Shown: positions 16,668 to 47,411, counted from the first letter of the stretch. The stretch is 64,000 bases of DNA from Psammoneis japonica (GCA_008632985.1 QPGO01000067.1:62001-126000); one strand, 5' to 3'. Program-made: numbers and translations. The notes: a model not told the origin generated them from the sequence alone.

Positions 16668-19009
16668 TGTGATATCGTAATGTCTTTAACAACTGCTTCT
16701 ATACACCAACAACTAAAAGGTAAGGTCACGAATGCAATAGAGTGCCCGATCGCCGATCGGCTGCAGAAATTAATGACTGTGTCTGTCTCGCCAAAATCTT
16801 GCCCCAAAATGTCAGAAAAAAAATGTGACGGGGGGGGGCTGCTGTCAGGCAGTTCAGGAGAGACAGAGGGAGCTGCTCGTCAACAACGGGCCTGCGATGC
16901 AGCAGAGCCAGCTTCAGTGGACAAATGGGTTCAGATTGGTTTGCAATTGAGTCCCAAGCAATGCAAGAAGTGGAGCAAGCAAAAGAGAAAACTGCCAATC
17001 TGTGCTCTTGTGTTTTGTGTTTGAACATGATCAGTGGCCAGCCTCCTGTGTGCAAACAAAAAGTGCAAGTGAGCCAATTTTGCAAACCTCGCCCATGCCA
17101 GGATGGGGCACAATGAGGCAGTCATTCAGCTCAATCTTTGTTGTGCTTTTTCCCAATGCAGTCAACAAAAGTCCCTGTGTTGGAAAGTCAGCCATCATCA
17201 TGCCCCTTTCAGAGAGCTGAAGCAGCACCCACCACCCACACTTTGCCTTTTGGCTTCAACAGCTGAGATGCTTCTCTTGCCAAAGTTGCACCCGCAGATG
17301 ATGGAACAGGGTTGTCAGCACAACACTGCTGTTCACAGCACCACAACAAGGGGGTGGGGGCATGCTCTCTCTTGCATGATGAGCAACAGAATCGCCAGCT
17401 GCTGCTGTTCAAAATTCTTCTGCATCGCAACACAGTGCTGCTCTTCTTCTTCAACACCTTGTGCAATGATGCCAACAACCTCACAAGAATTTGTTGTCTC
17501 ATCCTCACCACAAAGCACTGTTGCAATCATTGCACACAATTCTTGAGGAGCAGTGCTGTGCATTTGTCCTTGCAAACGGCGCAACTTCAAAACAAGTTCT
17601 TTGAGCTGGCGGTGCTGGCGGGCAGTGGCATCATTGGTGGCCCAAAGAAGACTGTCTGACAATGGGAGCTTGCAAATTGTTGTTGCTGCAGACACAGCAG
17701 AGTTGCAAAAAAAGTGTGTGTCAACTGGGGGTCAAGAGATGTGCAGAGGCAGCTCGTTGTTGCAGCTCCTCATGATCATGGGGTTGGCCCAGCAATTTGG
17801 CAGCAAACTCATTTTTGTCCAAAGAGCACCATCAAGGCAGCAATGCAACCCAGTGCTGTGCTGACATTGCACCATGCTCCAATTGGTGCCCATTCTCTAT
17901 TTGGCATCACTTGGGAGATGTCAGAGCTTTTGCCTGCCAGAAGAGAACAGCAAGTGGGAGTCATGAGTTTTGCATGATGTTTTTGGTTTGGAGAGACAGT
18001 TTGGCAATGATGCAGCTTCCACTCACGTTTGTGCAATGTTGTGGCACAGTGTTCTCTTCAGGCTCAACTTGTGTGCCAATTTGTTTGTCAAGGGTGGTGA
18101 AAGCATCAGCTTTCTACATTGTTCTGAAAGCCACCTGCTTTCATCATGCCACGCTTCCAACCTCATGCCTTTTCTTGTGGCTTTTGTTTGTTTCATTGCT
18201 CACAGTGCTTGGCTCTGCTGTTGCCTTTCCGCAATTCTGTCATTCCACAGGATGCTTAGATGGCTTTCTGTGTTTTGTGTGTTGCATGTTGTGTGGCAGC
18301 AATGATGTGTTTTTGGCGCAATGCAAAGCCAGTCAGCCTGGTGATCATTCTCTGCATCATTTTGTGACTTGTCATTTTTCATGTCTTTTTCTTTGTCATG
18401 TGCATTTTTGAAGGTTTGTGTTGTTTAAATCAAATCAAGTGAGTGACAGGCAGGACTGGCCTTGGTTGACCAACAATTTCATTCAAGCAACGTTCTTTGT
18501 TTGCAAGCAGGATGTTCAACATTGAACCAATCTAGAGCGCACGTGTTGTGCAAGATTGATGTTTTCATTCTCTGTGATCTCAGTCAGCTCTTGTTGAGAA
18601 TGCAATTTTCACTTTGCACTGATCCAAACAGCTTGTCCATGTGTCAGTGTCTGTCAGACTCTGCTGTTGCAGCTGGTTTTTGCACAGCTGATCCAGATTC
18701 ACACAACAACCTTTGTTGCAGCTGTGCTCACATCATGGTTGAAACTTGTGTGCAGGACAAGGTCAGAAGGGGGCATGGAGTTGGTTGTGCAGGAAGTGTT
18801 GGACCCCTGCAAAAAGAGCTCATTGAATTGCTCAAGCAACAACTTGGCTTGTCCACTGCACTCATGGCAGCCCTGCCTGCCAGCACAGCAGCATCCAGGG
18901 ACAGCACCTCCCATCATGTTGTCACTGCCAGCAACAACATGCTTCAAACTCTCAGCTTTGTGATGCTGCAAATGATGACACCCACAGTGCCCAAGAACAG
19001 CAAAGCTGA

Positions 19010-19970
19010 AAGGTTGATCTCATGGCATTGTGCCCCTGGTCACATTGCCCCCCAACAGCAGCAGACTTGACTTCCCCAACTCTGAGCTGCGCAGATCCCA
19101 TCATGGTGCCAACCAACCTGACAACTGCCAGCACAGGGCATTGGTGGTTTTTGGTGGACCCCAGGCAAGACTTCAAGAGTTGTTCTTGGGCATTGTTGCA
19201 AGGTTGGTCTTGTTGTGCTGTGGCCATGTGTCACCTTGTGCTCAACAACAGCAGACTTGAACTTCCAAGTTCAAAAGCAAAAGGATCCCACAATGGCGCC
19301 AACTGACCTGACAACTGCAAGCTGAGGAAATTGGCGGTCTTTGGCAGACCCCATGCAACAGTTTGAGAGCTGTGGCTGGGCGATGTGAGGTTGATGTTGT
19401 GGTGGAGTTTCCCCATTTCCCTTTGACCCCAACAGCAGCAGACTTGAGCTTCCAAGCTCCAAAGTGCAGGGATCCCATGGTGGTGCCAACCAACCCAGCA
19501 ACTGCTGCAGAGGGCACTGGCGGTGGCTGGGAGACCCCAGGCAGCACTTTGAAAACTGTGGTTGGGCATTGCAAGGTTGATGTTGTTGTGGTGCCCCATG
19601 TCAGCTTGTGCCCAACAGGAGCAGACTTGAACTTGCAAACTTCTCAATTGGAGGATCCCATGATGGTGCCAACTGACCTGACAGCTGCAAACTGAGGGCA
19701 CTGGCAGTGTCTGATTCACACCTGGTTTGACTTTGAGAGCTGTTGTTGGGCATTGCAAGGTTGATCTTGTGCTGTTGTGGCCCCACATCACCTTGTTCCC
19801 AACAGGAGCAGACTTGAGCTTCCAGACTCCAGTGCAAAAGGATCCCTCCAATGGCACCAACCAACCTGCCCCAACTTCCAGCAGAGGGCACTGGTGCAGT
19901 GTCTGTTGGATCCAGGAGGGCAAGATTTGTCAAAAAGTGTGCTTGGGCATTGCAAGGCTGATCTTGTGGC
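19010..19970. repeat. Degenerate tandem repeat, about 5 units of 182-190 bp
   Basis: The anchor aacagcagcagacttga (with variants) recurs at about 19054, 19244, 19431, 19613 and 19801. Confidence 0.88.
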
Positions 19971-22900
19971 AAGGATTGAATGATCCTGTCTTTGAATCCA
20001 TGTCTGTGGCAGCTCCTTGGTTCTTTCTGCGTCCATTTAAGCAGAGTTGGAGTTGGTGTGTTTCCTGTGACTGCTGACGAAAAAGACTCAGATTCAGACA
20101 TGGAAGCCAAGGAAGGAAGATTTTGCAAGATGCACAAGGTGAGCTTGAAGAATGTGGTTGCTTGTGTGGTGGCTTGAGTCTGCCGCCACCTCCTGACCCT
20201 GCACTGTGCTGAACAAGGAACAACTGAAGGTGTGTGCCCACAACTGCCACTTTTCACATTGTCACAATGCAGATCTCACAAGGTTGCACCACATCCTGAT
20301 TCTGTGAATGTGTGTTTTTCACTTGGATTTGCTGTTTTAGAACATTTGCACCAATGCTGCCACAGGGATTGCCCGGGGGGGGGGGGGGCTGAAAAGCCTT
20401 GGCTGCATCATTGGTTTTTTGTGAGTGGGGAAAGCCAAGGCTTGTGCATCATGCTGGTGCTGGATGCAATGAGGGCATTCCATGGCACAAGCGATTGTTG
20501 CAAAATCCTGGATGGCAAAAAAGGGCTCCCTGTGCATGATGAGTTTGTTGCCAAGTTGCACAAGGAATGAGGAGAATGGCACAAAAAGTGAAACAAATGT
20601 GGAGGATCAGGCAAAATGATTTGTGAGCAATGTGGTTGAGAACAGTTTGGTTGGCACATTTGCAGCACCTGATTTAAGCAAGAGAGTCAGCAAGGACAAG
20701 AAAGGATTGAGTCAAAGTTGTCCTTTTAAGATGTGCTGCACAAGTGGCAAGCGCCCTTCTTGCATCATCATCCTGGGCTTGTGCTGCCTCAAGATCACTG
20801 GCATCTCACTCATCCTGAATGTGCAACAGCCAGAGCAGAGCCAAGAAAAGGTGTGACAACACCTGGGGTCACATGACCCAGTTGTTAAAAAAGTCCATTG
20901 TTTGGGACCAGCACTGTTGGCTGGAAACCTCAACTCAGGCAGCACTGAAAACAATTGCAACAAAGAAGTGGCAGTCTTGTTTCTGGTTTTTTGTCATTTT
21001 TTGCAAAGTGGTGGATTCACTCATCAATGCAGACAGAGCACAATTGTGAACCTGCTTGAGTGCAGTTGTTTTGTCACCCTCCATTCTGTGTCCCCAACTC
21101 AACAGCTCACCTTGACAACTTCCAATGTCCATGTGAGCGTTTTGCCATCTTGCTCCTTTTGCTGTCTTTCAGCTCAACACATGGCACCTCATCTTTGGTT
21201 CACACCACACATTGTTCCATCAGCAGCTTTTCCACTTTGCATGAGGTTGTCATTGCCACCCAAAACTTTTCAGATGAGTTTGCCTTGGTCCAATTGCATT
21301 TCCAGGCTCCAGTGCAACACACTCCAAGAGCTGTGCAGGCTGGAGAGCAGAGTTTGCACAACAGCTCTGACTTCAACAATGTCTGACCCCTAGTCCAATC
21401 AGAACATGCAAAATGATGGCCTGTTGAAAGCCACAGCAACAGCAATGCCACACTCTTTGGTCAATCTTCACATTGTTGCGTTGCTGATTTCTCTGAGCAA
21501 CAGCCTGCTCTGGTTGTTCTTTTGCCATGCCAATGACTCCCATGACAAAATGTGCAATCAACAGGTTGCTGAACATTGTTTGCAGCCAATCATTTCCAAC
21601 AATGCCAAGCACACAATGTTGTTCAAGAGACACAAAAGGCACTGTTGGATGGCAAGCAACATTGGGGTAAAGAGGTGTTTGGTGCAAACAAATGATTCTC
21701 ATGGACTTCAGGAGGAACAACAGCCAATTTTCAAGTCAATTTCTGCCATTCTTTCCTGTTGTTGGTTGTGTGTGCATGCTGGAATCACCTTTTGCACTGC
21801 AGATCAATGGTGCATGCAACTGCAATTGCCCCTGCATGTCTCTGGATGGGTGGCTTGGCCAATGAGAAATGATGACACCAAGAGGTGGCAAAAGTGGTGC
21901 AATTGTGTTGCAAACAAAAAAGCATTTTTTGCATTTGTTTTCACTCTTTCCTGGAACACCAGTGTCAGGCAGTTGTGCAGCAGAAACACCCTGAAATGCA
22001 GGCAATGGGCAATCAAATGAAAGACCTTCCAACCAACTGAACAAACTCTCAACAAGATCCAAAAGTTTTCAAAATGAAACACTGCACATTCAATGCCATT
22101 GCAGCCATCACCTGTGAACATCAATCTCATTGTAAAAAAAATGCCAGATGTGCAATTGGAACAGCCAACCACAGTGAAACAGTTCATGAATCAAATGGCA
22201 GAACAAGCACAACAGTTGACATTTGTAAAAATTGTGTGTTGGTGGAAATTGCAGTCACAAATGTGAAAACTGCAGTCTTTGTCCATTGCTCTTCTTGTCA
22301 AGTGCAGAAACATGTTGCAGACAATTGAGCAGAAGCTCACAAGCAAACAAGAATCACAGGTGCATGCTGTCATGCTTGGAAACATGGCACACTCATCAGC
22401 ACAAGACATGGAGTTTGACAAGGATGGCAGTGGTGCCCTTTCAGCCACAGCTTTCTCCAAATTTTCTGTGGCACATGTCACCACACAGGCAAGTCCCACA
22501 CAGTTTGTCTTTGAACTTGATGCAGCTTTGCATGTTGCCCATTGCACTGAGTGGAAGCACATCCAAGACAGAAAGCAGAAGTGGGTGTGCTTGAATGACA
22601 AGCGCAAGAACACAGAATGGAAAGAGCAGCAACCAATGGCAGGCAGCTGGCATTTGCCAAACAAGAGCAGTTGTGCAGGTTCTGCCAGAGTTGTCTGTGC
22701 CTGTGTGCTGACAACATGCACAATGTGCAGCAGATTGTGCCCTGTCACCAGCAAGCACTGTGCTGGCAATGTGGCAAGACCACGCAGATCCCAAACACAG
22801 GCATCATGCTGCAGCAGTGTCAGCACATGCCATGGAAGCACAGAGAGGGTTCCCTGGAGGCTGGCAACTCAGGCATTTTAGAAGTGAGCATCCGCACATG

Positions 22901-23882
22901 ATGTGTGTTTGCACTGACAGTTGACAGGCTGCCAGTGTAAAGGAAGAACAGCACATGGGGGCTGCACACCTGTGTGCATGTGATGTGCACAAGCGGGGTT
23001 GGAGAAACTCAGATGCAGCTGACTGGGTGTGTCCCAAGCTGTGAGCCAACATGAGAATTTGTGCAATTCCCACTCACTCAACTCCACTTTGCAAAAACAA
23101 AAAACCAATCTCACAATTTCCACAGCAAAACTTTCAACAACCTGCCATCTCTGTGAAGTGACAGTGCATGAGGCACCAAGCCTTCAAGCTCAACTTCTTC
23201 AACACCATGTTGGAGCTGTGTGAAAAATTTCCTGCAGCACCAGTGCAGGGAATCTCCTTCTCTGCCACATTTTCTGACAAAGCACAGTGATCAAAAGAGG
23301 CTGAGTGCAGCCTCAACAGCAAACAAGAAAGCACAAAATTGAGCCACACATCAACAAGTGCCAAAGATTTTGCTGGAAAGCCACTCTAAAGCAGAAATGA
23401 GTTCTGTTGCTCTGTGTGACAGCAGCTCTAAATGCCTCATTGGTGTGAAAGAAAACAGGTTGACCAGTCTGTGCTGAGCATGACAAGGCAATCCCATGAG
23501 CTGTGAGGTGACAGAAATGAACAAACAAGGCATGGCTCATGACCTTGCACCAAGCAAAATCACCAACTTAACAGCAGCGCTGGGCACTGAACCAAGAGAA
23601 ACTTTATGCTGTGTGCTGCTGCAAGCACAAGACAATTTGAGGTGGCACTGCCACAGAGGTGATTTCAGTCACTTTGCATTTTCGCAGCAGGAGTCATTCA
23701 AAAATGTTGCGCCAGTCACAGCTGGTGTGTTTTGCATGAAGAAAAACCCAAAATCGTGTGGAGGTGCACACTCCTTGTGTCATGCAAGAGAGTGATTGGA
23801 GCCAATGACTTTTTGGGAACTCAATTGAAATGCCATCTGATCAATGGCTGGCCTTCACTGTGTAAATCAAGATCAGACAGCA

Positions 23883-24010
23883 TGTTTCAATTGATTTCCC
23901 GAGAAGTTGACATTCACACACAGACAGATGGACAAACTGACAGCGACAATTTTTGGCACTCTCCCACACAAATTCTACGTGATGACTCTGAGGACCCGAA
24001 TCATTCCTGT
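23883..24010 (+). repeat. Mutated copy of the short dispersed element at 30860-30987
   Basis: tttcccgagaag..cattcacacacagacagatggac..ttctacgtgatgactctgaggacccgaatcattcct aligns with 30860-30987. Confidence 0.85.
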
Positions 24011-27000
24011 TGAAAACACATCTGCATCACCTTGGTGCAGAAAAGGACACAAACAACATCAGGCTTGAGCAGAAACAGAGAATTTTTGTCTGTCAGCAGA
24101 TCAACAATGTGCTGCACACAAGCCAGAGCATTGAGCTGAAGAGCCCGCACTCCAGCCAAGCATGTCACACCCAACAGCAGCAAAAATCCAGAGCCTCCAC
24201 AATGTTGAATTTGAAATGATGTGAGTGGCTGTGACATTTGTGAAACATGAAAAACAGCAATGCAGAGACATTGGGCATCAGCTGAAGAAGTGCTGTTTGT
24301 CCAACAGTGGGGTGCAGACAGAGACAAGCTGTTGATGCCAACTTTCTCCACAAGGTGTGCTTGCAAAGCATTTTTGTGGCAAATCTGCATGTTGCCATTG
24401 CACAGATCTGGGCCAAGTCTTTCATTCTCAAATCATGGAAGCACTGGTGTTTCTCATGGTTGGCTTGCTGTGCAGCTGCACAAAGGTGCACTTCTTCAAT
24501 GAGCAGAGACTGCAAAAGGAGGCTCAGATGAGGTCGCAAGTGTCCTGCACCTTTGTTGCAGAAACCACACAAACTCAGATGTGCTGCACATCTTGGCTGT
24601 CATTTGCTGTGATGGTTGTGCCAGACAAAGTTGGAACAACTGACTGGCACTGTTCTTTGAAACAATTGTGGACCCACACTCTGCTCCTTTTCCCAAATGA
24701 AATTGCCCGCTGGTTGACAAGACAGTGTGAACTCACTTTGCTTTTGTTTTGTTGCTGTGTGAGGCATTGGGCAGCACCTGCAAATTGGCACTCAAGAGAT
24801 TGATCTCTCTGTTCTTGTGGCAACATGTCCTCTGGCCACACACGCACCACTGAGCCAGACACACAGGGTGCAAGAGTTCAGAGGACTGCCCAAAAGATGC
24901 TGATCAGCATCTTTTGGGAAATCAATTTCCTGGGATGGCAGGTTTGTTCATGCCATGTCCAAAAGCCCTGATCTGGCCCTGGACAATGGTGTGTTGTGGG
25001 CTGGGATCACAAATGGGAGCTCTGACCACTGCCATGCATCTTCTTCCACACCAGCAAAAGCAGGGGGCAACAAGTCAAAACCTTTCAGAGTCCTGATCCC
25101 CCAAGCACTGTTTCTGTGCCCCCCACTCAGTGAGTGACTTGTGAGTGACTTTTTTCAACTGCCATTGCTTGAACTTTGGGTGTGGCAAGGACAGATTTGC
25201 ACCAAGAGACAGTTTTCTCAATGGTCGCCAGATGAAGCGCTGGCGCACCACACTGATCTTCCAAATGCTGCTGTGCACAGAAACAAGCAATGTGAGTGGA
25301 AATGGCAGAATTTTCAGAACAAAAGTGCAGTGCTCCCACACCTTGGTCATGCCGATCTGTGTGGCTTGGGCAAGAGAATGCCAAGGGCCAATGGAAGCAT
25401 TGACCAAAGGCACCCAGATCTCAAAACAAGGCCTGATGATGCTCATCTGAGGAAGATGAAAGTGAGGTGCTTTTCATCATGTTTGGAGTGTGATGTGGGA
25501 AAATGAGTGAATGTCTCCAGGGATTGCTGTGGTTTGATGGAAAAGAATGGAAAAGAAGAGCTCTGCCTGCAAGACAAAGGCAAAAAGGAAGGAAAAAGAA
25601 TGGGGTGAGCTGCTCAGCACCATGTTGCCACCTGAGAAAGAGGAAATTTTGGCTGTGGCTGTGCCAGAAGCCAAGGGATCTAAAGCTGCCAGCATTTTTT
25701 TCCAGAGGGACAGATTGTGGGCAAGCAGGTGACAATGAGAGTGCACAGTCAATGGAGCACTCTTCTTTGGAGTTGACAACACTTGGGGGAAGAGGCAGGG
25801 GGGGGGAATGATCAAGCCAAGGCTCTGCAGAAGGAATTCATCAAAAATGCAAAGGAGAAGAGTGCAGCTCTGCCAGAAAGAAAGTGTGCAAAAAGTGAGA
25901 GTTTGTGTGTGAGCAATGGTTTGACACATTCAATGACATGAATGATGTGCAGGGATGACATGGCAAAAGAGTGGGAGAGCAGGTTGATCAGCTGAAATGT
26001 CCATGCAAACCAGCAACTTTAATGTGACAATGTGTGTTTGTCTTTTGCTCACCTTCATCATTGGCAAAGTCACATGAATTGTTGCAGCACACTTCTGGCT
26101 CCTGCTGAGAAACAACTTTCAAGTCGACTGTTTGAGCAAGGTGACAGCATGAGCATGCATCCAATGCACTCTCCTCCATTGTTTTCCATGATGCTTTTTT
26201 AACATCAGCCAAATGCCCTCAGCTTCTACATGGATTTCTGCACAACTTCTCACACTGATGTCACCCTTCTCAGATGGTGTTGTGTTGGCTCCAACAAGCC
26301 CATTTTGTCCACAGTTGCCAGCAGCACAACTTCATTGCAGCATGAAGAGCAATGTTCTTCAGCGGAAAATGACGGGTGTCAAAGCCTCATGCTTTGCATG
26401 CTGGCTGCCATTCATTGTAATTTTCTGTCATCTTAGAAAATTTTCTGCAGCACACAGGCTCCAGTGCAAATTCTGCATGGCTCTGCTGAAACCACTGATG
26501 ATCTGCATGACACATCTCTGCAGTCAACTTTGGTCCCTGCCAGTTGGTCTTCAATGCCACTTCCTTTCTCTGCCATTTGGTCAAGTCTTTTGCTCTTGGG
26601 GTGAAAGCACTTCCTCTGTTGTGGCTCTTTCCAGCACAAACAAGAGCGGCACCCTTTGGCATCAGTTGGTTGTCATCTGCTTGCTTCACCCACCAGCATT
26701 TCTGCACAATGTCTGGCATTGTTTCTGTGTGTGACAAACATTTTTTCTGATGACCCACCCATCTCACCTTCAAAGCTCCCAGCTCCATGCATCCAAGTTT
26801 TTTGCACAATCTTTCCTTTGCATGAGTGCAGTTCTCTTTGGTGCATGAATGAGTGGCCTTGCAGCCCAGGTCAGTGTTGGCTTTGGAAGCACATTCCAAG
26901 GTGCTCAGTGTTTTTTTTTTGAAGACCACCAGTCATCTGAGCATGGCTGTCCTGCGCATCTGTGGTGCACCTTTTGTTGCTGTCACCAAAAGTGTGCAAC

Positions 27001-27529
27001 AAAGTCCTTGTGCAAATTGTTTCCATTCAACTGTTCAGTGGGGTGTCACTGACAGGTGATGCCCACACTGGCCAATTGGCAGCACTTCTGCCACACTGTG
27101 CAGTGTGCTGGAAGCATGGGTTGGCCAGCACCGGCACAGCCAACAATGGAGCAGCAGCACTCCAAGTGCAGATCTGCTTTTTGCATCTTCTTCAATGGCA
27201 CTGGTGGTTGACAATGCAAAACACAAATGAAGGAGCGAGAAGGCTCAAGAGAACATCACCAAAAACAAGGTGGCACACTCAAAAACTCGGCGTTGATGTG
27301 CTGCTTGTGGCTCACAGTGGCTCTCAAGCAAAAAGCAACAACAGCGGGGGGGGGGGGGGACAGCAGTCAAAAAGCAGGGGTGAGTGTCATGGTGAAGTGA
27401 TGGTTGAGAGCAAGATGTGACCATGCAAAATCTTGTGTGGAATCTTGCGAAAATTGATTGTTGAGAATCAGACCTCATGGCGCCAACTGGAATCTTGTGA
27501 AAATGGAACTCTTGTGAAAAATCTGTCAC

Positions 27530-29790: not shown

Positions 29791-30291
29791 GGCAGTGCTG
29801 CAAGAGAAGCTCAGATTCGAGAGAGCTCTTTCTCAGCTCCATCGCGGCTGCCATGATGGCGCAATTTTGTTGTGTCATTTTTCTCATTGGCAAATGAGGG
29901 GTGTGATTCAGTGGCAATGCAGTGCAGCAGCAATGTGGTTGATGTGATGTGGCAGCAATGTGATGCACCAGCAATGTGGTGCAGCAAAATGCAATCGAGA
30001 AGCAATGAGCGGTGTCATTGCCGCGTTGCCGGTGATGAAGCACGATTGCGCTGAACCTGGCACTGCACCACGTACATTCATTCTGCGCAGTGCAATGCAT
30101 TGCGCATTCTGCTGACAGAAAATCCCCACTTTGGGTGGGGGGTGGGGGTGAAATCATTCGAAAATGTCGCGTGGGTCATAATTGATTTTTTGCATGTGGA
30201 AAAACACAAAATCGTGTAGAAATGTACACAATGTCATACGAGAGAATGATTAGAGCTAACAACTTTTCGGGAACTGAATTGAAAAATGCTG

Positions 30292-34039: not shown

Positions 34040-34310
34040 TCCAACAATCTCTCCCATCGGCAGAACAGATTTGTGGAAGGTGCTGTCCTTGTCTCATCTT
34101 GGAAATCATTGAGATGATCCATGGGAGCATGTCCAAACCAGTGAAGAACTGGTGCAGACCAAAATCTGTGGACATGTCTCTGTGCCTGGGACAAGGTGCA
34201 AGTGTGGTGGACATTGACACTCCAAACAATGCTTTGGACCCATTCCAGAGAAATGTGATGTGACAGCAACTGCGTCTCACCAAATTCTGAAAAGAACGTG
34301 ACCTGGAGAT
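34040..34310 (-). pseudogene. CDIN1/C15orf41 (TPD domain)-like fragment, mutated copy
   Basis: SKALFG followed, across a frameshift, by QAQRHVHRFWSAPVLHWFGHAP. This resembles the family motif SKAxFG..Y.NRFGPGLVIYWFG. Confidence 0.5.
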
Positions 34311-36129: not shown

Positions 36130-36380
36130 GGCAAAATTTGACGTGCAAGTTTCAAATCTGAGATGAAGAGAGATTGCTTTCTTTGTGCAACAAAGACAGC
36201 ACTTTTGCACAATTCAGACACAGTGTTTTTACTTGCCTTTGTGCCACCTAGAAACTGCATTGGGTGCCAGTTTCAAGACTGCTCATTTTGTGGGGGAATG
36301 TGTTCTGTGTCCTTGACTTTCAGAAGCCTCCTTGTTGTTTCATTGCAACTTCTGGAAAGTTCCAAGCTGCCTTCAATTCA
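36130..36380 (-). pseudogene. Possible histone-fold protein remnant
   Basis: FPEVAMK / RRLLKVKD / LKLAPNAVS / VSELCKSAVFVAQRKQSLFISDLKLARQIL, read across frameshifts, resembles histone-fold helices 2-3. Confidence 0.35.
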
Positions 36381-39300: not shown

Positions 39301-39490
39301 GCAGCACTTTTGTTGTTTGTGCATTCATTGGTGCATGGCAGTTGCTCTCAGCACTCAGCAAACCACCATCAAATCTTTTGAATTCAAGTCAAAAGTGTGC
39401 AGAATGATGCCAAAATGCTCACATGCACACTCCACACAAAAATGTGCTTCATGCCAAAAATGAAACTCCTGCCCAGAAGCTCTCAAAATC

Positions 39491-39668
39491 AGAGCTCATC
39501 CAAGCTCCTGACATCAGCAATGCTCACCATGGAAAACTGTCAACTGTTGACATGTGAATTGCCAGTCACCAACAGCTTCCTTTTTCCTTGCCACTTTTTC
39601 AGTTCACCACAGGAGAGCAACTCGTGTGATCTAAACAATCACTCACTTTTCACACTTCTCCACTTTTG
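39491..39668 (+). repeat. 5' LTR-like direct repeat
   Basis: gagctcatccaagct..acatcagcaatgctcacc..ttccttgccac..ggagagca..atcactcacttttcacac..ccactttt matches 44351-44518. It is followed by tggtgc, a possible primer-binding site. Confidence 0.7.
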
Positions 39669-41708
39669 GGTGGTGCTTTGACAGTCATTTGAACACATCA
39701 CATCAACCACAACCAATCCCCCACCAAGCAAATGCTTGAAATCATAATCTGTGGATGAGTCCCTTGCTTGCAAATCCTGTGTCCAAACATTCACCCTGAA
39801 GAAGCATGTGTCACACGCCCATGGTTGCACCACCTTCACATCCTGCCCAGCCATCACCACTGACATGAGAAATGTTGAACGCTGCCTCACATTTCACATG
39901 ACAAAAATGCTTTGGCCAGTGCATCCAGAGATGTCCCCTGCTGACCATCTCAACATCATGGACAATTTGACCAATTCTGCCAGCACCATTGACATCCAAA
40001 CCAACAAGCACAAGACTGTTGACAAAAGGTCCCTCAAGAAACCAGCAAATCTCCAGGTGCCATCTCATCATGATGCTGGAGGCAACATCATCCCAAACTG
40101 TCTCTTGACAGTGCAGGCATCACCAAGCCCATCCAGGATGGCCCAACAGCAGACCGCCACCATGATGACATCATGTGTGCACCACGACCATCATCAACCT
40201 TGGCTCTTTGCATGGCAACAGGAATCTTGCCATTGCATTCTTCATCTGCTGACTGCCCATGAACAACACTCAACCACTCAACACAGCCAGAAACCCTGCA
40301 AATGTGTGCACTTTCAGCAGTCCTGGCAATTGCATGACCCCACCACCAGAGCAGGATCATCAAGACCTTGCTCACCAACCCAAATGAAGCCACACCATCT
40401 GCTGAACTTGTTGGTGCCATTGTCAACTCCCTCATCATCAGCACCAGCTGCAAACACACTCTACAGTCTGCAGGATGGTCTCTTGTCCATTGCTCCTGCA
40501 TTCATTTCCTGTTCATTGACGACCCATTCAAGATGATCAATCACATGCATCAAGTCAATGACCCATCTGATGATGCCATTGTCAAGTCCACCATCCAGGA
40601 ACACCATGACAACTGCAATTTTGACCTGCCAACCCTCACAAATCAGACACATGTGCAATGGCAGTGGAACCCACTGTGTCTCTTCATTGACAATCTTGAC
40701 TCTCAGATCTGCCAAAAGATCAGGGCAAAAAGACTCCACAGTCATGTGGAGACTGTGTCCCTCCTCTGCTCTGAACAAGCCAGACTCATCCAAGCTGCTT
40801 TCACAGCAACTGAGACAGCCAAGTTGAATCTCACCACTGATTGTCTGTTCATCCAAGGCAAGCTCCGCAAGACTCATGGCTTTGTGACTGTTGCTCAGCA
40901 GCCAACCATCCAACAACCTCTTGTCTCCAATGCACCCACTGTGGCCAAAGCAGCGGCCAAGGATCAAACTGTCATTGCACTCCCAGTGCTGCCAAGAGTG
41001 CCCCCAATCATCAGAAATTCATGGGCAAGTCAGGTTGCTGGGGGTGTGGAGCTGCAGAACCCCTCCACTGTGATTCCAAGACAAAAACAATTGTCTGTCC
41101 TTACACCAATGAGCCAGAGATTCACAAGAATGCTGTGTGTGCAAGGATTTCAACAAGTGCATGAAGAAGCACCATGGTGGCAATTGTCGCACACTCAAAA
41201 TCTTTCTCACACCAGCAACCTTCTCCTGTTGGCACTCCCATCTCCAAAGTCTAAATCCAGAGGCAATGACCAGCTCGCTGGTCTCATTGTCAACTCAAGC
41301 AAGCAATCCTTGGGCAGATCCAACAACAAACATGAGAGAGCAACTCCAAGTCAGTCATCACTCTTCACATGCACATCTGACAGTCCATGTCAAGAAACCT
41401 TCCTCAACTCCCCATCCTGGTGAACAACATGCTGCATCATGTCGTGCTTCAACTTGGCCTTCCCAATGGTGCATTCAACCCATGTGCTGTTGTTGATGGT
41501 GCTGCTGCTCTCATGTGCAGCAACAGCAATTGTGGGGTGCCCACATTGCAAAGGTGCACCCCCTGAGCCAGCCAAGACAGCACTTGTCATGTCAAGGGTT
41601 GTTGCTCACTCATCACACTGATGACAAAATTGCGGTCAACATGTGTCTTTTCATTTCCTTGATTCTGTCTGCCCTGCAACACCAAAAGTCTCTGAAAATC
41701 AATGTGGG

Positions 41709-41907
41709 AAAGAGCATTTCCATGAACCCGTAGAAAAATGCCGATTTCGAATTTTTTAGCTCGAAAAACAGCCGACAACACTGATGAAGCGAAAGCGAAA
41801 GCTCACATCATCGAGCTTTGTATGTCAGGCAACTCTCAATAGATTGCTGTTATGCTGAAGGCTGTTGGTGCATTAGACAACCCCGAAAAAAGAGCATTTC
41901 CATGAAC
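41709..41907. repeat. Insert of about 160 bp retaining CG and TA, flanked by a 19-bp direct repeat
   Basis: aaagagcatttccatgaac at 41709-41727 and at 41889-41907. Confidence 0.85.
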
Positions 41908-44350
41908 TGCACTGTCGCCATGAGCTTCATCTCAACAGCCAAGTTGGTCATGGACTTTTTGAAGATGACACAGTTGATTTTAAACTGCATGATTGTGATC
42001 TCCATTTCCCATGGAATTCCACAGCCTGGCTTGCTCAGCTTTGAAGCTGCTCCCTTGCAATGAGTGGGCATCATCCAGCTCAAATCTTGTCACAGATGGG
42101 AGAGATTGACAAGTTTGTCAAGAACTGCTCCTGTGACACAGAACCTGGCACTGGTGCTTTCACCTCACAGATCTCCCCAAAAGTCTGTTTTGATCTTGGT
42201 CCATCCATGACCACCATTTCTGGTCAGCACCGTGCACCACACATCTCAGCATCATGCATGATGTCAAAGTCACTTGCAAGTGATGATTTCACATCACATC
42301 ATGTCACACATCTTGACATTGCTCAAACACACTGTTGACATCCTGAACACACCTCCATTGCAGGGTCAAATGATCAACATTCCTGAAGCACCACATCATG
42401 CCAAGAAGCCCAACCTGTTTGAAAGACAGAATGTGCCAGACACTGAAGACAACTTTTGTCTCCTCCTTCATGAGGCTTGAGTTGGCAAAGTCATCAGAAA
42501 GAAGACTCATCTGAATGCACGGACCTGGACATTGACCCCAACTTCACTTCTTGAACCTTCAATCCAGCCCAAGACACCAAAGAGCTGAAAAAAAATCTAC
42601 AACTTGATGAGGATTTGTGCCAGAGGATGTCAAGTCTTGTGTCATTGAGCTCATCAAAAAGCATCATTGTTGCTGCTGCTGCAAAGAAAACATCAAAATC
42701 CCCATCCAGGACTGTGAATGCATTGTCAACACAGGTGCAGCAAAACCAACAGCAGCCAAGAACATCCAATGCAGCCTTCACAAAACCTCTGTCATGAATG
42801 AAGCAATTGATGCCCTGCTGGAGAATGGACACATCATCCCCAACACATCAAGGGGGTGGCTGTCAAGGATCATTCTTGCCCCCAAGCCACACCAGGAAGA
42901 CATCACAGACATCAATGAATTTGTCTGGCAATTCTGTCTTGGTTGTGTCAACCTCAACCAAATGACAAAGGCAGCCTCACATTGAACTCCTTGCTGTGAT
43001 GATGCCACAGAGCACAGTGTTTCAGCTCCACCTCACATTTGTTCCTGCTCAACTTCTTCAATGGATGCCTTCAATGGATGCCATCAAATCAAGATGGGGG
43101 CACTGTCAGCTGCTAAAACTGCATTTGCTGCCCCCCCAAAGGCCAAAAGTGTCAGCACACCATCATGCCTTTCAGAGTTGTGAACAGGCCCACCACACGT
43201 GTTGCAACGGCACACAACGTGAAGGACAGCTGGGACAATGAAGCCAAAGTCATGGGTGTCACACTCAATGACAGTGATGGCTGGTCCTTCACATTGCCTG
43301 CCATCACAACTTGTCTTGAAACTTGAAAAAAATGCCTTTTCTTCCCAAAATCAGTCAAGTTTGTGGATCATGTTCTCACCACTTTGGGCCATTCCAAGAG
43401 TGGATTGCTCAGATGTTGGAAGCAACCTGGAAACATGTGAGACATCTCCAGCTTCATCTGCTTCTTTGGCAGCTTGTGTCAACAGCACATTCCATCATGC
43501 TTTGCGGACCAAGCAAGCACCAATCTATGAGTCAGTCAAGAACCATGACTTCAGCTGCAAGATCAAGGACTCCAAACAGACCGATGCCCTCAACAGTGAG
43601 TTTGAAGATCATTTTAAATCCACCATCTTGTCAAAACCATTGCTCTGTTGAGTTGATCACAACAAGAGACCATGCCTGCATGCTGACTTCTTGGGATGAG
43701 AGATGGCCCATGCACTCCTCCAGCCCAGAGATGATGAAGCATCCTTGGCAGGCCTCAAACCTCACATCAGAGAAGGAGTGCCCTTTGCTGGGTGATTTGT
43801 GAAAACTCTCATGTGGTCCATGGACAGCCACTTGCCAATGTTGGAGACTGCTGCAGACTGATGTGGTGGATCATGTGTTGTGAAGGCTGCCATCCTGCCA
43901 TTGCCAACCACCTGCAAATGAAGCTGGTGTCATTGTGGTTCACTGTTGTCCACCAACCCAACTGCACACTCATCAATGCCGTCCACTTCTCACAATGATG
44001 TGGCCAAGAAATCAACTTGGACCCCATGCTTGCTGGGCACATCTTGACAGCACAAGAGCAACTGGCATCAGACATCTGCTGCTGGCAGCCACACAGGAAC
44101 AGAAGTCAAAGCCAAGAACATGCCTCATTTTTGTTGCAATGCAAAAGCAATCAAACAAGCTGACACCATTGCTGTCCAATCTGGTCCAAGTGAATTGGAA
44201 GAACCGTCATGCTGGAGAACACCCCAGCATCATTTGGCACATCTGGCAAACCAACAGCCCCACCCAGACACTCCGGTGCCTGACTTTTGCCTGGATGTTT
44301 TCAAAAGCTCTTTGGCTTTTGCCATCTTAGTTGATGGGTGGCTTGAAAGT

Positions 44351-44518
44351 GGAGCTCATCCAAGCTAACATCAGCAATGCTCACCTTCAGAAAACCCACA
44401 GCCGCTGGCACATGAGTCACCAGCCCTTTTCCTCTTTCCTTGCCACCTTTTCAGCTCATCGTGGGAGAGCAGCTCACAACCCAGATGATCACTCACTTTT
44501 CACACCACTCCACTTTTA
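44351..44518 (+). repeat. 3' LTR-like direct repeat
   Basis: Matches 39491-39668 and the split copy at 47330-47405 plus 48403-48497. Confidence 0.7.
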
Positions 44519-44805
44519 AGAGCTGTCTGTTCACACTTTCATTTCTGCACATTTTTCTGCTGACAACTTTTTTGTCATTGTGTTGTGCAGCTGCAGCATT
44601 TTTTTCACCACCCATGCGCTGCCATGGGTGGGGATGCTGCAGAAATCATGCAGGTGCCATTTTTAAAAGAAAAACCAACCTTGTTGCCCAAATGGACCAT
44701 GGCGGTCATCAAAGCCGTGACAAAAAAAAGTGTCCTCATGATTCACAAGTCTCAACGTGCAGTCACAATGCACAGGCAACAACCAAATCAACCTGCCATT
44801 TCTCA

Positions 44806-45090
44806 CCAAATTGCTTTTGCACCCTCAGAATCACTGTGTCAGACAGCCCCTTCAAAGCATCACATCTGCCATCATCTGGTTGGGTGGAGTGCACCAAGGG
44901 GCTGTCTTGAACAATGATTTGGTTGAAAATTAAGCAACATCAACACCTGACCAACACACATGATGTTTCATGCCAAATCGCTTTTGCACCCTCAGGATTG
45001 TCATCAAGAGTTGCACTTTTGATGCCACTGTGTCCGCCATCATCACATCAGGTGGGGTGCACCAAAGTGCAACTTTTGGAAGCAATTTCA
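44806..45090. repeat. Two tandem hairpin-forming units
   Basis: Shared ccaaatygcttttgcaccctcag leader and shared loop. Stems are agacagcccctt/aaggggctgtct and agttgcacttt/aaagtgcaact. Confidence 0.7.
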
Positions 45091-45384
45091 TCAAGCAATT
45101 TTGAAATGTCTGCAAATGACCTCACATCTTGTCTGAACATCATGCCGCCATCCAAATGGCACTTTCACAAAGAATTCTTTTGTTTGCCAGAAGTGGAGAC
45201 TGCTGGGAGTTTGTCTGTCAGCAAACAACTTGCCATCATGATGAAAGCTGCGAGGAAAACTTTTTTGCACTCTGAGACTCTGAGACTTTGAGAGTGATTG
45301 ATTCAATCAATTCCATGTTCACAACAAGCAACAAGTGTTCAAAAATGCTGTGTTTTTGGCCTCATCAAGAGGAAGAGTGCCACT

Positions 45385-45740
45385 CTGAGCCACATTGTGG
45401 AGAGGAATGGGTGGCTGCACATGGTTGCTGGTTGCTGTGGATCCACTCTGCCCTGCATCAAGGCCATTTGGGAAATGCCAGAGCAGCACAAGCCAAGAAA
45501 GCTGCCAGACATTGGCCTTCCCAAGATTTTGCTTTCTGGTCTCAAGGATTTGGTTGTGTGGATGACACTCAGCACAACCAATTGGCTTGCCATTTTTGAA
45601 CATGGGTGAGTGTTGCAACATTTCTTGATCAACTCACTTCAAAAAGCTCATGATGGCAGGTTTCTGTGAAGCAGTTGTGGACATGTCAAAGAAGCAAGTG
45701 GAGGATGGGGCGCACATGATTGACGTGGGTGTCAATTGGA
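45385..45740 (+). pseudogene. METH: Cobalamin-dependent methionine synthase fragment (end of Hcy domain and start of pterin domain)
   Basis: NGWLHMVAGCCGST..IKAI..KPRKLP..LLSGL, then FLNMGECCNIS..FKKLMMAG..KKQVEDGAHMIDV. Confidence 0.85.
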
Positions 45741-46519
45741 AAGTGGGAACTCCTGCTTCTGATGCTGCTGTCAACCCAAATGATGCAAAGATGGTTCCAA
45801 CTTGTGTCATGCAAAGTCACATGTGCACGACACTGCCAGATTGGTTGGTGTTTTGTCCATGTTTGTGTGTGTTTTGCAACAATTGTTGCACGCAGCACAA
45901 CACTTGCACAACAAGAACATGGTGCATGGTTTTCCTCTTGACAGAAAACATTTGTTTGAGAGTTGGAATCATGTTGTTTTGTTGGATGTTTCGTGTTTCA
46001 TCCTGCAAACACAACGTGACTGCCTTGCCTGATGATGACCCATCCATGTGTTTGTGTCATTGACAAGAACAAATGGAGGAGTGTTGTCAGTTGGTGCAGG
46101 AACATTTCCATCTGCTGCTGCGGCAAAGCCAATGCACACACCTGATGCAATTGACACCGGCCGGTGACATTTTTGGTGTTGGTTGTTGCATGATGGAACT
46201 CTTTTTGAATGGCGAGCGTGTCACAGAATTGGGAGATTTGATGGAACATCATCAACAGGGCACCTCGACAACTTCACTTCAATCCAATCTGCACAAGAAT
46301 GAATCGTCTTCAACCCAAGCCACCTGTCAACACATGTTGCATTTTTTAAATCCCAAACAGCGACTGTCAGCAAAAAAGCATTTGCAGTGACTCAAACAAC
46401 AACTGCAGGGGAGTGGCAGTGGAAGAGATGGGGCAGCAGGAAAACTGCTTCAACCTTGGATGCATCACAGTCATCATCATTGTCCACTGTTGCTGCCAAC
46501 GTTGAGGCCGTGTGCATGA

Positions 46520-46692
46520 GAACTGAATTGCCACATGGTGCAAAGCTGGCTCGTGAGGCTTGTGTGATGAGGTGATGGCCAAGGATCCCACCAAGCCCGG
46601 TTTTGTCATGTGTGCTCTTGGACCAACAAACAGCACAGGTTCAATTTCTCTTTCAGCAAAAGAGCCGTCTGCCAGAAATGTGACCTTTGACA
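46520..46692 (+). pseudogene. METH: Methionine synthase fragment (middle of Hcy-binding domain)
   Basis: GAKLAREAC / DEVMAKDPTKPGFVMCALGPTNSTGSIS..PSARNVTFD. Confidence 0.85.
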
Positions 46693-47411
46693 AAAGTGAT
46701 GTCGATTTGCCCAGTTGGACCTTGATGACGATGATGGACGAGCCGGGCTCCTGCTGGCATTGCCCAAGGGATGACAGGGAATTTATGTGGATCAGGAAGG
46801 ATGCCAAAGGTGGACATCATGCTTGATGATGTGACCTTGGTTTTGCCATGAAAACGGCATGTGGATTGTTTTGCACTCAGTTGATTTTTACACGGTGAAG
46901 TGTGCGGCAAAAGCGAGAAAAGTGCCGTTTCTTGTTCTCTTCAAGTGCACAGTCAAGTGACTTGGTGGAAACATTGTCAGAGACATGAGAGCTGTCACTT
47001 TTGATGTCGGTCACCATTGGCATTGTAAAAGCCACAATGACACTCCAAAACTGCAAACGAGTCAATGCACGAAAAAGTCAAATGTTTTCAGTCGTGATTG
47101 CACGGCAAAGTGCGGGAAAATGGCAGCCACTTCATCGCTCTCGATCTTGACAAATGCAAGGCCAATGAAGAAGTTATGCCCCGTTCCAAGCACCTCTGAG
47201 CACCCTCTGTCGAATGAGGTGAGTCTCGTTTTTACAGTGATCAGAGGGTCTGTGGTGTTTGCGATCCAAGAAAATTCGTTTCTACGTGATTTCTACGGGC
47301 GTCCCACCCATAGCCCGCTGTTTGGATGTTGCCCAAGCTGACGTCAGCAACGCTCAGCTCCAGAAAACCGTTACATCGGCACATGAATCGCCAATCGAAT
47401 CGCCATGCACA

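What the first reader, a model, noticed from the sequence alone, without database searches (positions are those of the whole stretch)
16790..47150. Candidate new genome-defence hypermutation: CpG and TpA both converted to TpG/CpA across two 13-kb transposon blocks
Seen: in 16.8-30.2 kb and 33.9-47.2 kb, TA falls to a few sites per kb and CG is scarce, while TG/CA dominate. The flanking genes and intergenic DNA contain both dinucleotides freely. Known: CpG loss fits 5mC deamination, and diatom transposons carry CG methylation attributed to DNMT5. Fungal RIP converts CpA to TpA, which creates TA. Methyl-C decay cannot explain TpA loss, which needs A->G (T->C) at TpA on both strands. Inference: a domain-targeted mutator acts on repeat-rich chromatin and runs opposite to RIP. 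Candidate mechanisms are a DNA adenine deaminase, or error-prone repair synthesis of the Pol eta WA->WG type. I know of no description of this but cannot search the literature.
Basis: partly seen in the sequence, partly recalled or inferred. Interest (0 to 1): 0.96.

Follow-up and report, generated by a model that had tools for sequence, protein, structure and literature searches.

The report
CpG and TpA erased in blocks
Two 13-kb stretches of silent, repeat-bearing DNA in what looks like a diatom genome have had nearly every CG and TA rewritten to TG or CA, extending a TA-targeted hypermutation first reported in 2026 in an unrelated alga.

Summary
In 16772-30178 and 33898-47174, TA falls to 3.0 per kb (obs/exp 0.04) against 39.4 per kb in the flanks. 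CG falls to 8.9 per kb (0.16) against 57.1. TG and CA roughly double, and GC content barely moves.

It arose by mutation in place. Where a sequence has one copy inside a block and one outside, 28 of 36 outside CG sites and 21 of 28 outside TA sites read TG or CA in the block copy. Tandem copies inside a block show TG/CA swaps that only independent conversion explains. K-mer contigs of a public run bridge a block border at flank depth, so a basecalling or planted artefact is unlikely.

No transposon or viral protein domain was found, although parts are multi-copy. The CG-converted zone is nested inside the TA-converted zone, which points to two processes.

The TpA half is no longer undescribed. 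A 2026 bioRxiv preprint measured exactly this signature in Bigelowiella natans, but it does not mention CpG or diatoms.

Verdict: a real, near-saturated hypermutation limited to these domains, and a new variant of a very recently described kind. The enzymes and the methylation state are untested.

The parts
16772..30178 (.). Block 1: domain almost free of TA, with CG depleted
   Evidence: 35 TA in 13.4 kb. 1-kb bins show TA obs/exp 0.00-0.08 and TG/CA 1.65-2.34. Run X1 contigs cover it at depth 57-68, the same as the flank.
33898..47174 (.). Block 2: second such domain, not homologous to block 1
   Evidence: 45 TA in 13.3 kb. blastn between the blocks finds only an 87-nt match. An R/Y dot-plot adds only short matches.
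27501..30178 (.). Right tail of block 1: TA converted, CG only about half converted. Mostly multi-copy DNA.
   Evidence: The two tails pooled (with 46001-47174) hold CG 25.7 per kb and TA 2.9 per kb. X1 summed depth is 330-2300.
46001..47174 (.). Right tail of block 2 with the same asymmetry
   Evidence: 500-nt bins at 46001 and 46501 hold CG 9 and 13, and TA 1 and 2.
33956..34646 (+). Left edge of block 2: converted copy of the DNA downstream of TylF-2 (50141-50776)
   Evidence: Pair A: outside CG gives 10 TG/CA and 1 kept; outside TA gives 5 TG/CA and 0 kept. Pair A2: 4 TA to TG and 1 CG to CA. The adjacent part 32423-33897 / 48525-50004, with both copies outside, keeps 77 of 94 CG and 34 of 51 TA.
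23730..24008 (+). Converted copy of a dispersed repeat. Its unconverted copy lies at 30188-30345 plus 30862-30985, at and beyond the block 1 border.
   Evidence: pairs B and B2. The family is multi-copy in X1 (depth about 1560; joints 30344 to 23885 and 30345 to 30861).
39582..39667 (+). In-block copy of the sequence upstream of TylF-2 (48405-48496)
   Evidence: (pair C2): 5 of 6 outside CG sites read TG/CA (the sixth reads TT).
44435..44517 (+). Second in-block copy of the same upstream sequence
   Evidence: (pair C): 6 of 7 outside CG sites read TG/CA, and the 1 TA reads CA.
19011..19944 (+). 187-nt tandem array (about 4.5-5 copies) inside block 1, with each copy converted independently
   Evidence: TRF period 187/370. 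38 of 309 homologous pyrimidine-purine steps are TG in one copy and CA in another, against 0 of 325 in the control pair.
30179..33897 (.). Unconverted spacer between the blocks: dispersed repeat, a 1340-nt element with 48-nt terminal inverted repeats (31026-32365), and the TylF-1 gene (32256-33605)
   Evidence: TA and CG are at flank density. Terminal inverted repeats are 98% complementary. TylF Pfam E=7.5e-45. X1 summed depth is 1400-2060 over 30342-32342.
15138..16727 (-). Expressed flanking gene whose transcript 5' end lies 45 nt from the left border of block 1
   Evidence: An X2 contig is spliced across a 95-nt GT..AG intron and ends at 16727.
39501..45000 (+). Sub-region of block 2 with CA exceeding TG on the + strand
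   Evidence: (TG-CA)/(TG+CA) is between -0.14 and -0.29 in 9 of 11 500-nt bins. GC skew reaches -0.20 and AT skew +0.09.

Best explanation
Two silent, decayed, partly repetitive stretches of a diatom-like nuclear genome have undergone hypermutation in place. Within each domain two context-specific transition processes have run almost to completion.

1. TpA goes to TpG or CpA. This is A-to-G on one strand or the other. It is the same signature measured directly in Bigelowiella natans mutation-accumulation lines.
2. CpG goes to TpG or CpA. This is the signature of deamination of methylated cytosine.

The most likely chemistry is enzymatic deamination of adenine to hypoxanthine at TpA, together with deamination of 5-methylcytosine at CpG. 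Both would be confined to a silenced chromatin domain whose edges abut active genes.

**Shown:** the composition, the direction of change, action after duplication, action on both strands, the sharp borders, the nesting of the CG zone inside the TA zone, and read support.

**Inferred:** the deaminase chemistry, methylation, chromatin targeting, the defence role, and the diatom origin.
For: - **Composition.** TA obs/exp 0.04 and CG 0.16, with CA/TG 1.86/1.89, matching a simulated full conversion of the flanks (1.92/1.91). GC content and pyrimidine-purine step density are unchanged.
- **Direction.** In 6 paralogue pairs with one copy inside a block, 28 of 36 outside CG sites and 21 of 28 outside TA sites read TG or CA in the block copy. 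The control pair, with both copies outside, gives 12 of 94 and 12 of 51 (Fisher 2.8e-12 and 1.3e-5). Two of the six pairs share one outside copy.
- **Border inside a duplication.** A duplicated segment, 32423-34646 matching 48525-50776, is normal up to 33897 and converted beyond. The border therefore lies inside pre-existing host DNA and is not an insertion junction.
- **Timing.** There are 38 of 309 TG/CA swaps between in-block tandem copies against 0 of 325 in the control. Conversion was independent in each copy and followed duplication.
- **Both strands.** TG 3024 against CA 3223. The runs test gives z -0.88 and -2.41, within the range of simulated random conversion.
- **Position rather than repeat family.** One repeat family has a converted copy in block 1 and an unconverted copy at and beyond the border. 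Parts at single-copy depth are converted, while multi-copy DNA at 30.3-32.3 kb is not.
- **Two processes.** CG is retained at 25.7 per kb in the tails, where TA is already 2.9 per kb.
- **Reads.** An X1 contig of 4732 nt at depth 62 spans 14354-19079 across the border with 10 differences. Other contigs cover 19844-26824 at depth 57-68.
- **Possibly ongoing.** 3 of 7 isolated differences between the window and X1 in the single-copy part fall on the 1.7% of bases that are residual CG or TA (P=1.7e-4). The list of differences shown was partial.
- **Precedent.** In B. natans, 230 of 231 new mutations in two regions were A>G or T>C, all at TpA, and the genome holds 124 clusters depleted in TpA and enriched in CpA+TpG (preprint Results).
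Against: - No methylation, chromatin or enzyme data exist for this locus, and no whole genome is held. Generality, targets and candidate enzymes could therefore not be examined.
- No viral or transposon protein domain was found in the blocks, so the 'foreign DNA' targeting seen in B. natans is not shown here.
- The B. natans process showed no CpG component. One search found 0 mentions of CpG, and 210 of 211 NCLDV-region mutations were A>G or T>C.
- Runs X1-X3 come from one sample and one study and may be the source of the assembly. The sequencing platform is not on record, so read support is not fully independent.
- The unconverted repeat copy beside block 1 could simply be younger than the process.
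- Residual TA sites are strongly context-biased. This could reflect enzyme preference, or fresh C-to-T creation of TA. I cannot tell which.
Confidence: 0.7

Rival explanations
1. One dual-specificity DNA deaminase, for example an ADAT2/TadA-like enzyme acting on both C and A, makes both kinds of change. No separate methylation-dependent CpG pathway is involved.
For: - The two depletions coincide over about 23 kb and share their left borders to within about 130 nt.
- Both kinds of change would yield TG from top-strand events and CA from bottom-strand events.
- The preprint's Results cite amphioxus ADAT2 editing of A and C in DNA, and Trypanosoma ADAT2 deaminating C in DNA (I did not read those cited papers).
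Against: - The CG-converted zone is nested inside the TA-converted zone. The tails keep CG at 25.7 per kb with TA at 2.9 per kb.
- In B. natans the TpA process runs without C-to-T changes.
- The contexts differ: C with a 3' G, A with a 5' T.
Confidence: 0.13
2. Sequencing or assembly artefact. Modified bases in heterochromatin, such as 5mC at CpG and a modified T or A at TpA, were miscalled as transitions by a long-read basecaller and carried into the assembly.
For: - The pattern is confined to presumably modified, silent DNA and consists only of transitions at palindromic pyrimidine-purine steps.
- The platform of X1 is not on record, and X1 may be the assembly's own data.
Against: - De Bruijn-type contigs of X1, up to 315 kb long, carry the converted sequence across the border at the same depth (62) as the flank. 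Error-prone reads would not assemble like that.
- TG/CA swaps between tandem copies look like fixed sequence. So do the ordinary transversions mixed with conversions in the paralogue pairs.
- GC content and pyrimidine-purine step totals fit true conversion.
Confidence: 0.05
3. RNA-level hyper-editing, ADAR-like A-to-I with a 5' U preference, of retroelement transcripts. The edits were fixed by reverse transcription, and ordinary CpG decay followed.
For: - TA is the preferred ADAR context, as stated in the preprint's Discussion.
- A 5.5-kb sub-region, 39.5-45 kb, shows CA exceeding TG, as one-strand editing would.
Against: - No reverse transcriptase or other retroelement domain was found.
- TG roughly equals CA overall.
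- Converted DNA includes a duplicated gene-flank segment whose conversion starts mid-segment.
- Tandem copies were converted independently in place.
Confidence: 0.05
4. The composition is native, not mutational. The blocks would be foreign DNA, viral for example, that evolved avoidance of CG and TA under selection, or error-prone Pol eta-type repair (WA to WG) shaped them.
For: - CpG and UpA avoidance is well known in viruses (listings only; those papers were not read).
- The blocks have no recognisable host genes.
Against: - Polarised pairs show host-derived sequence converted.
- The depletion, TA obs/exp 0.04, is far beyond the lowest value the B. natans preprint reports for giant-virus genomes (0.45).
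- AA is not depleted, at 1.20 against 1.14, so the WA motif of Pol eta is not the target.
Confidence: 0.03

Closest known systems
TpA-specific hypermutation of integrated viral DNA in Bigelowiella natans (Mettrop et al., bioRxiv 10.64898/2026.01.13.699255; I read the abstract, Results and Discussion)
   Same: - TpA goes to TpG/CpA on both strands.
- The process is regionally confined.
- It leaves TpA-depleted, CpA+TpG-enriched clusters that are mostly without annotation.
- The affected DNA is transcriptionally silent or foreign-looking.
- The enzyme is unknown; an adenine deaminase has been proposed.
   Different: - The organism here looks like a diatom (stramenopile), not a chlorarachniophyte.
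- Depletion is near-saturated (obs/exp 0.04, against 0.45 for their NCLDV region).
- CpG is converted as well, which the preprint does not mention.
- No viral genes are recognisable.
- No mutation-rate measurement exists here.
Repeat-induced point mutation (RIP) of ascomycete fungi
   Same: - A mutational genome defence that riddles silent or repeated DNA with transitions.
- It leaks into adjacent unique DNA.
- It leaves compositionally distinct blocks.
- Diatoms encode DNMT4 enzymes related to RID (PMC9998398, passages).
   Different: - RIP makes TpA from CpA. Here TpA is destroyed and CpA is made.
- RIP lowers GC content. Here GC content is unchanged.
- Targeting here seems to follow position rather than duplication.
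Methylation-driven CpG decay of silenced repeats (vertebrates, plants, some basidiomycetes; recalled knowledge)
   Same: CpG goes to TpG/CpA with reciprocal enrichment, confined to silenced DNA.
   Different: - It cannot remove TpA.
- The depletion here (0.04-0.15 in the core bins) is at the extreme end.
- Methylation at this locus is untested.
ADAR / APOBEC editing of repeats and retroelements (recalled knowledge, plus the preprint's Discussion)
   Same: - Deamination-type transitions.
- A 5' U/T preference for A editing.
- A defence logic.
   Different: Those act on RNA or on single-stranded replication intermediates and leave strand-asymmetric marks on mobile copies. Here both strands of resident DNA are hit, including non-mobile duplicated host sequence.

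Membership tests
B. natans-type TpA hypermutation | Changes are A>G / T>C at TpA, giving TpG or CpA | tested here: met
   21 of 28 outside TA sites read TG (11) or CA (10) in the block copy, and 2 are kept. The control gives 12 of 51. TA obs/exp is 0.04.
B. natans-type TpA hypermutation | Confined to discrete regions, with the rest of the genome normal | tested here: met
   Within the window, TA density steps from about 39 per kb to about 3 per kb at 16771/16772 and 33897/33898. The genome-wide picture cannot be tested.
B. natans-type TpA hypermutation | Targets are integrated viral or otherwise foreign sequences | tested here: inconclusive
   0 viral or transposon Pfam families in 128 ORFs and 12 read-through frames. 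Parts are multi-copy repeats. In B. natans, too, 81% of the proteins in the clusters lacked annotation.
B. natans-type TpA hypermutation | Spectrum almost exclusively AT>GC, with no C>T component | tested here: not met
   CG is also converted: 28 of 36 sites, obs/exp 0.16.
B. natans-type TpA hypermutation | Rate of new mutations raised about 1000-fold in clonal lines | not testable with these tools
   There is only a hint. 3 of 7 isolated window-versus-X1 differences hit residual CG or TA (P=1.7e-4; partial list).
Fungal RIP | C>T mainly at CpA, creating excess TpA and lowering GC content | tested here: not met
   TpA obs/exp 0.04, CpA 1.86, GC content 0.473 against 0.483.
Fungal RIP | Triggered by sequence duplication | tested here: inconclusive
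   Parts at single-copy depth (17.0-19.0, 20.3-23.7 and 24.3-25.7 kb) are converted. Multi-copy DNA at 30.3-32.3 kb is not. The ages of the copies are unknown.
Fungal RIP | Depends on a RID/DNMT4-type enzyme | not testable with these tools
   No genome is held. DNMT4 was reported in 31 of 60 diatom species, with unknown function (PMC9998398 passages).
Methylation-driven CpG decay | CpG>TpG/CpA with reciprocal enrichment | tested here: met
Methylation-driven CpG decay | 5mC present on the affected DNA | not testable with these tools
   No methylation data were available.
ADAR/APOBEC editing of retroelement intermediates | Strand-asymmetric edits on elements that replicate via RNA or ssDNA | tested here: not met
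   TG 3024 against CA 3223. Runs-test z is -0.88 and -2.41, within the simulated range. No reverse transcriptase was found. A duplicated host flank is converted.
Pol eta-type WA>WG mutagenesis | A>G at both TA and AA | tested here: not met
   AA obs/exp is 1.20 in the blocks against 1.14 in the flanks.

The most novel reading that the evidence does not exclude
Diatoms and chlorarachniophytes share an ancient pathway, targeted to heterochromatin, that deaminates adenine at TpA in resident double-stranded DNA. In diatoms it works alongside CpG methylation-deamination as a two-pronged mutational genome defence, an 'anti-RIP'. This defence permanently scrambles any DNA placed in a silenced domain without changing its GC content, and it is still active today.
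Probability: 0.3. Interest if true: 0.92.

Novelty: new variant of a known kind. Interest (0 to 1): 0.78.

Why it matters
Context-specific A-to-G hypermutation of nuclear DNA was first reported only in 2026, in one rhizarian alga, and its enzyme is unknown. Near-saturated traces of the same signature in a diatom-like genome would have several consequences.

- The process would be widespread in the SAR supergroup rather than a curiosity of one species.
- It would be tied to the CpG methylation system that silences diatom repeats.
- It would offer genetically tractable organisms in which to find the enzyme. A natural DNA adenine deaminase acting on double-stranded chromatin would interest both the genome-defence and the base-editing fields.

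There is also a practical point for annotation. Such blocks lack TAA and TAG stop codons and produce long spurious ORFs.

Tried and rejected
- **Whole genome.** None is held, so no genome-wide scan and no search for ADAT2-, TadA- or DNMT4-like genes was possible.
- **Earlier findings.** Three look-ups returned nothing.
- **Protein content of the blocks.**
  - 128 stop-to-stop ORFs of 90 aa or more gave only sub-threshold Pfam noise. Examples are Pkinase E=1.2e-3 at 46064-46387 and Pterin_bind E=4.7e-3.
  - 12 frames read through with X at stops added nothing. The nine longest ORFs gave nothing either.
  - ORF numbers are only modestly above dinucleotide shuffles: 54 against 38±5, and 44 against 32±4. 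The 361-aa and 262-aa ORFs look like by-products of TGA scarcity on the CA-rich strand.
- **Flank proteins against the blocks.** tblastn hits only the known duplicated edge.
- **Unconverted spacers.** No Pfam family. No tRNA and no Rfam family anywhere in the window.
- **Strand-coordinated, processive conversion.** The runs test shows nothing beyond the simulated expectation.
- **Metagenome scans.** A flank protein and the terminal inverted repeat of the neighbouring element both came back empty.
- **RNA evidence.**
  - No RNA holder is listed.
  - X2 behaves like RNA, since its contig is spliced, and it has next to no cover inside block 1.
  - X3 laid nothing.
  - These blanks are not evidence about expression.
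- **Literature.**
  - Eight answered searches found no paper describing joint CpG and TpA conversion, or TpA hypermutation in diatoms.
  - One search was rejected for a badly formed term.
  - PMC11884799 and PMC7884421 were checked by passages and are irrelevant.
  - bioRxiv supplements are closed. Tables S2 and S6-S11 of the B. natans preprint could bear on flanking context or CpG, and I did not see them.
Full report
**1.

In 1-kb bins the window is ordinary: TA obs/exp 0.33-0.83, CG 0.75-1.16, TG and CA about 1.0-1.36. The exceptions are 17001-30000 and 34001-47000. There TA obs/exp is 0.00-0.13, CG is 0.04-0.50, and TG and CA are 1.64-2.34. GC content stays at about 0.45-0.53 throughout.

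I place the borders from the site positions. The last TA before block 1 is at 16771, and dense TA resumes at 30179. The last TA before block 2 is at 33897, and dense TA resumes at 47175.

| Measure | Blocks (26,684 nt) | Flanks |
|---|---|---|
| TA sites | 80 | 1471 |
| TA per kb | 3.0 | 39.4 |
| TA obs/exp | 0.04 | 0.59 |
| CG sites | 237 | 2132 |
| CG per kb | 8.9 | 57.1 |
| CG obs/exp | 0.16 | 0.98 |
| GC content | 0.473 | 0.483 |
| Pyrimidine-purine steps per kb | 246 | 238 |

No flank 1-kb bin (n=35) has fewer than 19 TA or 41 CG.

I converted every CG and TA of the flanks at random to TG or CA in silico. That gave CA 1.92 and TG 1.91, and the blocks show 1.86 and 1.89. The blocks therefore look exactly like ordinary DNA of this genome in which the two self-complementary pyrimidine-purine steps were turned by transitions into the two non-self-complementary ones.

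**2. It is a mutation made in place, after duplication, on both strands**

The blocks are not copies of each other. Several short sequences, however, have one copy inside a block and one outside.

The clearest case is a duplicated segment holding a TylF-like methyltransferase gene and its downstream DNA (32423-34646, matching 48525-50776).
- Up to 33897 both copies are normal and 90% identical. They keep 77 of 94 CG and 34 of 51 TA.
- From 33956 onward the first copy lies in block 2. There the outside copy's CG and TA face TG or CA.

I pooled six such pairs.

| Outside-copy site | n | TG in block copy | CA in block copy | Kept | Other |
|---|---|---|---|---|---|
| CG | 36 | 11 | 17 | 5 | 3 |
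| TA | 28 | 11 | 10 | 2 | 5 |

In the control pair 12 of 94 CG and 12 of 51 TA face TG or CA. Fisher tests give 2.8e-12 for CG and 1.3e-5 for TA. Two of the six pairs share one outside copy, so they are not fully independent.

The border at 33897/33898 lies inside pre-existing duplicated host DNA. It is therefore the edge of a mutational domain, not the junction of an inserted element.

Inside block 1 lies a 187-nt tandem array. At 38 of 309 homologous pyrimidine-purine steps one copy reads TG and another reads CA. The control pair shows 0 of 325. A TG/CA swap needs two adjacent transitions. It is what independent conversion of a common CG or TA ancestor produces.

Overall TG (3024) and CA (3223) are nearly equal. 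The order of TG and CA along the blocks shows no more strand clustering than random conversion of flank DNA would give. One sub-region, 39.5-45 kb, does have a steady CA excess.

**3. The assembled bases are supported by reads**

A public run, X1, holds 0.92 of the sampled 31-letter words of 12000-21999. When laid on the window, one X1 contig of 4732 nt at depth 62 runs from 14354 in the flanking gene to 19079 in block 1, with 10 differing letters. Further contigs at depth 57-68 cover 19844-26824.

Contigs of this kind, built from exact words and up to 315 kb long, need accurate reads, so a basecalling artefact from modified bases is unlikely. A planted or in-silico feature is excluded, because public reads carry the converted sequence.

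Two caveats apply. X1-X3 come from one sample and one study and may be the assembly's own data. The platform is not on record.

**4. What the blocks are**

The flanks carry ordinary eukaryotic genes: C2, DnaJ, a UCH hydrolase, two TylF-like genes, DUF6824, an S41 peptidase, and an RRP6-like exonuclease.
- The long uninterrupted ORFs, the DUF6824 hit (E=6e-30), and the nearest Atlas clusters of two proteins (commonest phylum Bacillariophyta) point to a diatom. This is a lead, not a proof.
- The same features argue against the intron-rich B. natans. That B. natans is intron-rich is recalled knowledge.

The blocks hold no recognisable protein family: 128 ORFs of 90 aa or more, and all 12 frames read through with X at stops, gave nothing. 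ORF numbers only modestly exceed shuffles.

Read depth shows that parts are multi-copy in the genome.
- 19.0-20.3 kb and 23.7-24.3 kb have summed depth of about 1400-1560.
- 25.7-30.2 kb has summed depth of 330-2300.
- 17.0-19.0, 20.3-23.7 and 24.3-25.7 kb are at single-copy depth.

'Transposon blocks' is therefore too strong. They are silent-looking, decayed, partly repetitive DNA.

The 3.7-kb spacer between the blocks is also multi-copy but unconverted. It carries a dispersed repeat and a 1340-nt element with 98%-matching 48-nt terminal inverted repeats. One repeat family has a converted copy at 23730-24008 and an unconverted copy at 30188-30985, straddling the right border of block 1.

Targeting thus follows position rather than repeat family. 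The unconverted copies could also simply be younger.

**5. Two nested processes**

On both sides of both blocks the CG-converted zone lies inside the TA-converted zone.
- On the left the offset is only about 30-130 nt.
- On the right, CG stays at 25.7 per kb over 27501-30178 and 46001-47174, while TA is already 2.9 per kb.

Either the TpA process is faster, so the tails are recent additions to the domain, or its domain is wider than the methylated one. Either way the two conversions can be separated, which argues against a single enzyme.

The left border of block 1 lies 45 nt beyond the 5' end of a spliced transcript contig of the neighbouring gene. The left border of block 2 lies 293 nt beyond the TylF-1 stop codon. 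These positions fit chromatin-domain edges set by active genes. That reading is an inference.

**6. Context, and a hint of ongoing activity**

Residual TA sites are not random. After strand symmetrisation, the 5' neighbour counts are A 10, C 39, G 25 and T 86, against 768, 664, 888 and 622 in the flanks (chi-square p=9e-23). The resulting block/flank density ratios are below.

| Context | Block/flank density ratio |
|---|---|
| ATA | 0.018 |
| GTA | 0.039 |
| CTA | 0.082 |
| TTA | 0.193 |

This distribution also differs from the neighbours of CA/TG in the blocks. It may reflect enzyme preference, or fresh C-to-T creation of TA after pyrimidines. I cannot separate these two.

AA is not depleted (1.20 against 1.14), so a Pol eta-type WA motif is not the target.

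Among the differences between the window and the X1 contigs shown (a partial list), 7 are isolated and lie in the single-copy part of block 1. Three of them fall on residual CG or TA sites, which make up 1.7% of the bases there (P=1.7e-4). A fourth is a window TG facing CG in the run. This suggests the process differs between haplotypes or isolates, and so may be recent or still active.

**7. Comparison with what is known**

My searches found exactly one: the bioRxiv preprint 10.64898/2026.01.13.699255, dated 2026-04-14. I read its abstract, Results and Discussion.

Its main results for Bigelowiella natans mutation-accumulation lines are these.
- Two integrated viral regions mutate at about 6e-7 per site per generation.
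- 230 of 231 mutations there are A>G or T>C, all at TpA.
- The mutations arise only in some lines.
- An ADAT2-like deaminase is proposed but untested.

The preprint text never mentions CpG, diatoms or 6mA.

The TpA half of this finding is thus a second, independent and far more saturated instance of a just-described kind, apparently in another supergroup lineage. The joint CpG conversion, the nesting of the two zones, and the context bias are new in the sense that none of the searches above turned them up.

Fungal RIP works the opposite way and fails the membership test. Diatoms do encode RID-related DNMT4 enzymes of unknown function (PMC9998398, passages). That is a lead for the CpG half.

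**8. Verdict**

This is a real, striking hypermutation limited to these domains. The 'transposon' label and the claim that nothing like it had been described are not.

The mechanism is inferred, not shown: adenine deamination at TpA plus 5mC deamination at CpG in a silenced domain. Without the genome, a methylome or mutation-accumulation lines, the enzymes, the targets and the generality remain open.

Noticed in passing
32256-33605 and 48553-49707: Two paralogous TylF-like (macrocin O-methyltransferase family) genes, about 90% identical at the DNA level over 1.47 kb. The first copy has a longer ORF because a terminal-inverted-repeat element sits at its 5' end. Such genes are unusual in a eukaryote and may have a bacterial origin.
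   Followed up: partly
31026-32365: A 1340-nt element bounded by 48-nt terminal inverted repeats that are 98% complementary. It has no Pfam domain, is multi-copy in run X1, and is unconverted although it lies between the two blocks. It looks like a young MITE-like DNA transposon.
   Followed up: partly
47441-47909: A foldback: two 212-nt arms, 96% complementary, 45 nt apart, just outside the right border of block 2. It is unconverted.
   Followed up: no
12871-13061 and 13083-13261: A direct repeat of about 190 nt (87% identity). Its first copy lies between the DnaJ-domain ORF and the UCH hydrolase gene, and its second copy reaches into the 3' end of the UCH ORF.
   Followed up: no
15346-15440 (- strand): A 95-nt GT..AG intron in the gene next to block 1, supported by a spliced contig of run X2. 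That run, labelled 'DNA?', therefore behaves like RNA.
   Followed up: yes
39501-45000: Inside block 2, CA steadily exceeds TG on the + strand, with GC skew down to -0.20 and AT skew up to +0.09. Nearly all ORFs of 90 aa or more there lie on the + strand. This could mean strand-biased conversion, from transcription or replication direction, or it could be a property of the original sequence.
   Followed up: partly
17096-17685 and 35037-35425: This is the only homology between the two blocks: short segments 76-82% identical, at similar distances from the left borders. It may be remains of a shared repeat.
   Followed up: no
41501-42000: A small island inside block 2 with 7 TA and 11 CG in 500 nt. 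It could be a later insertion or a protected patch.
   Followed up: no
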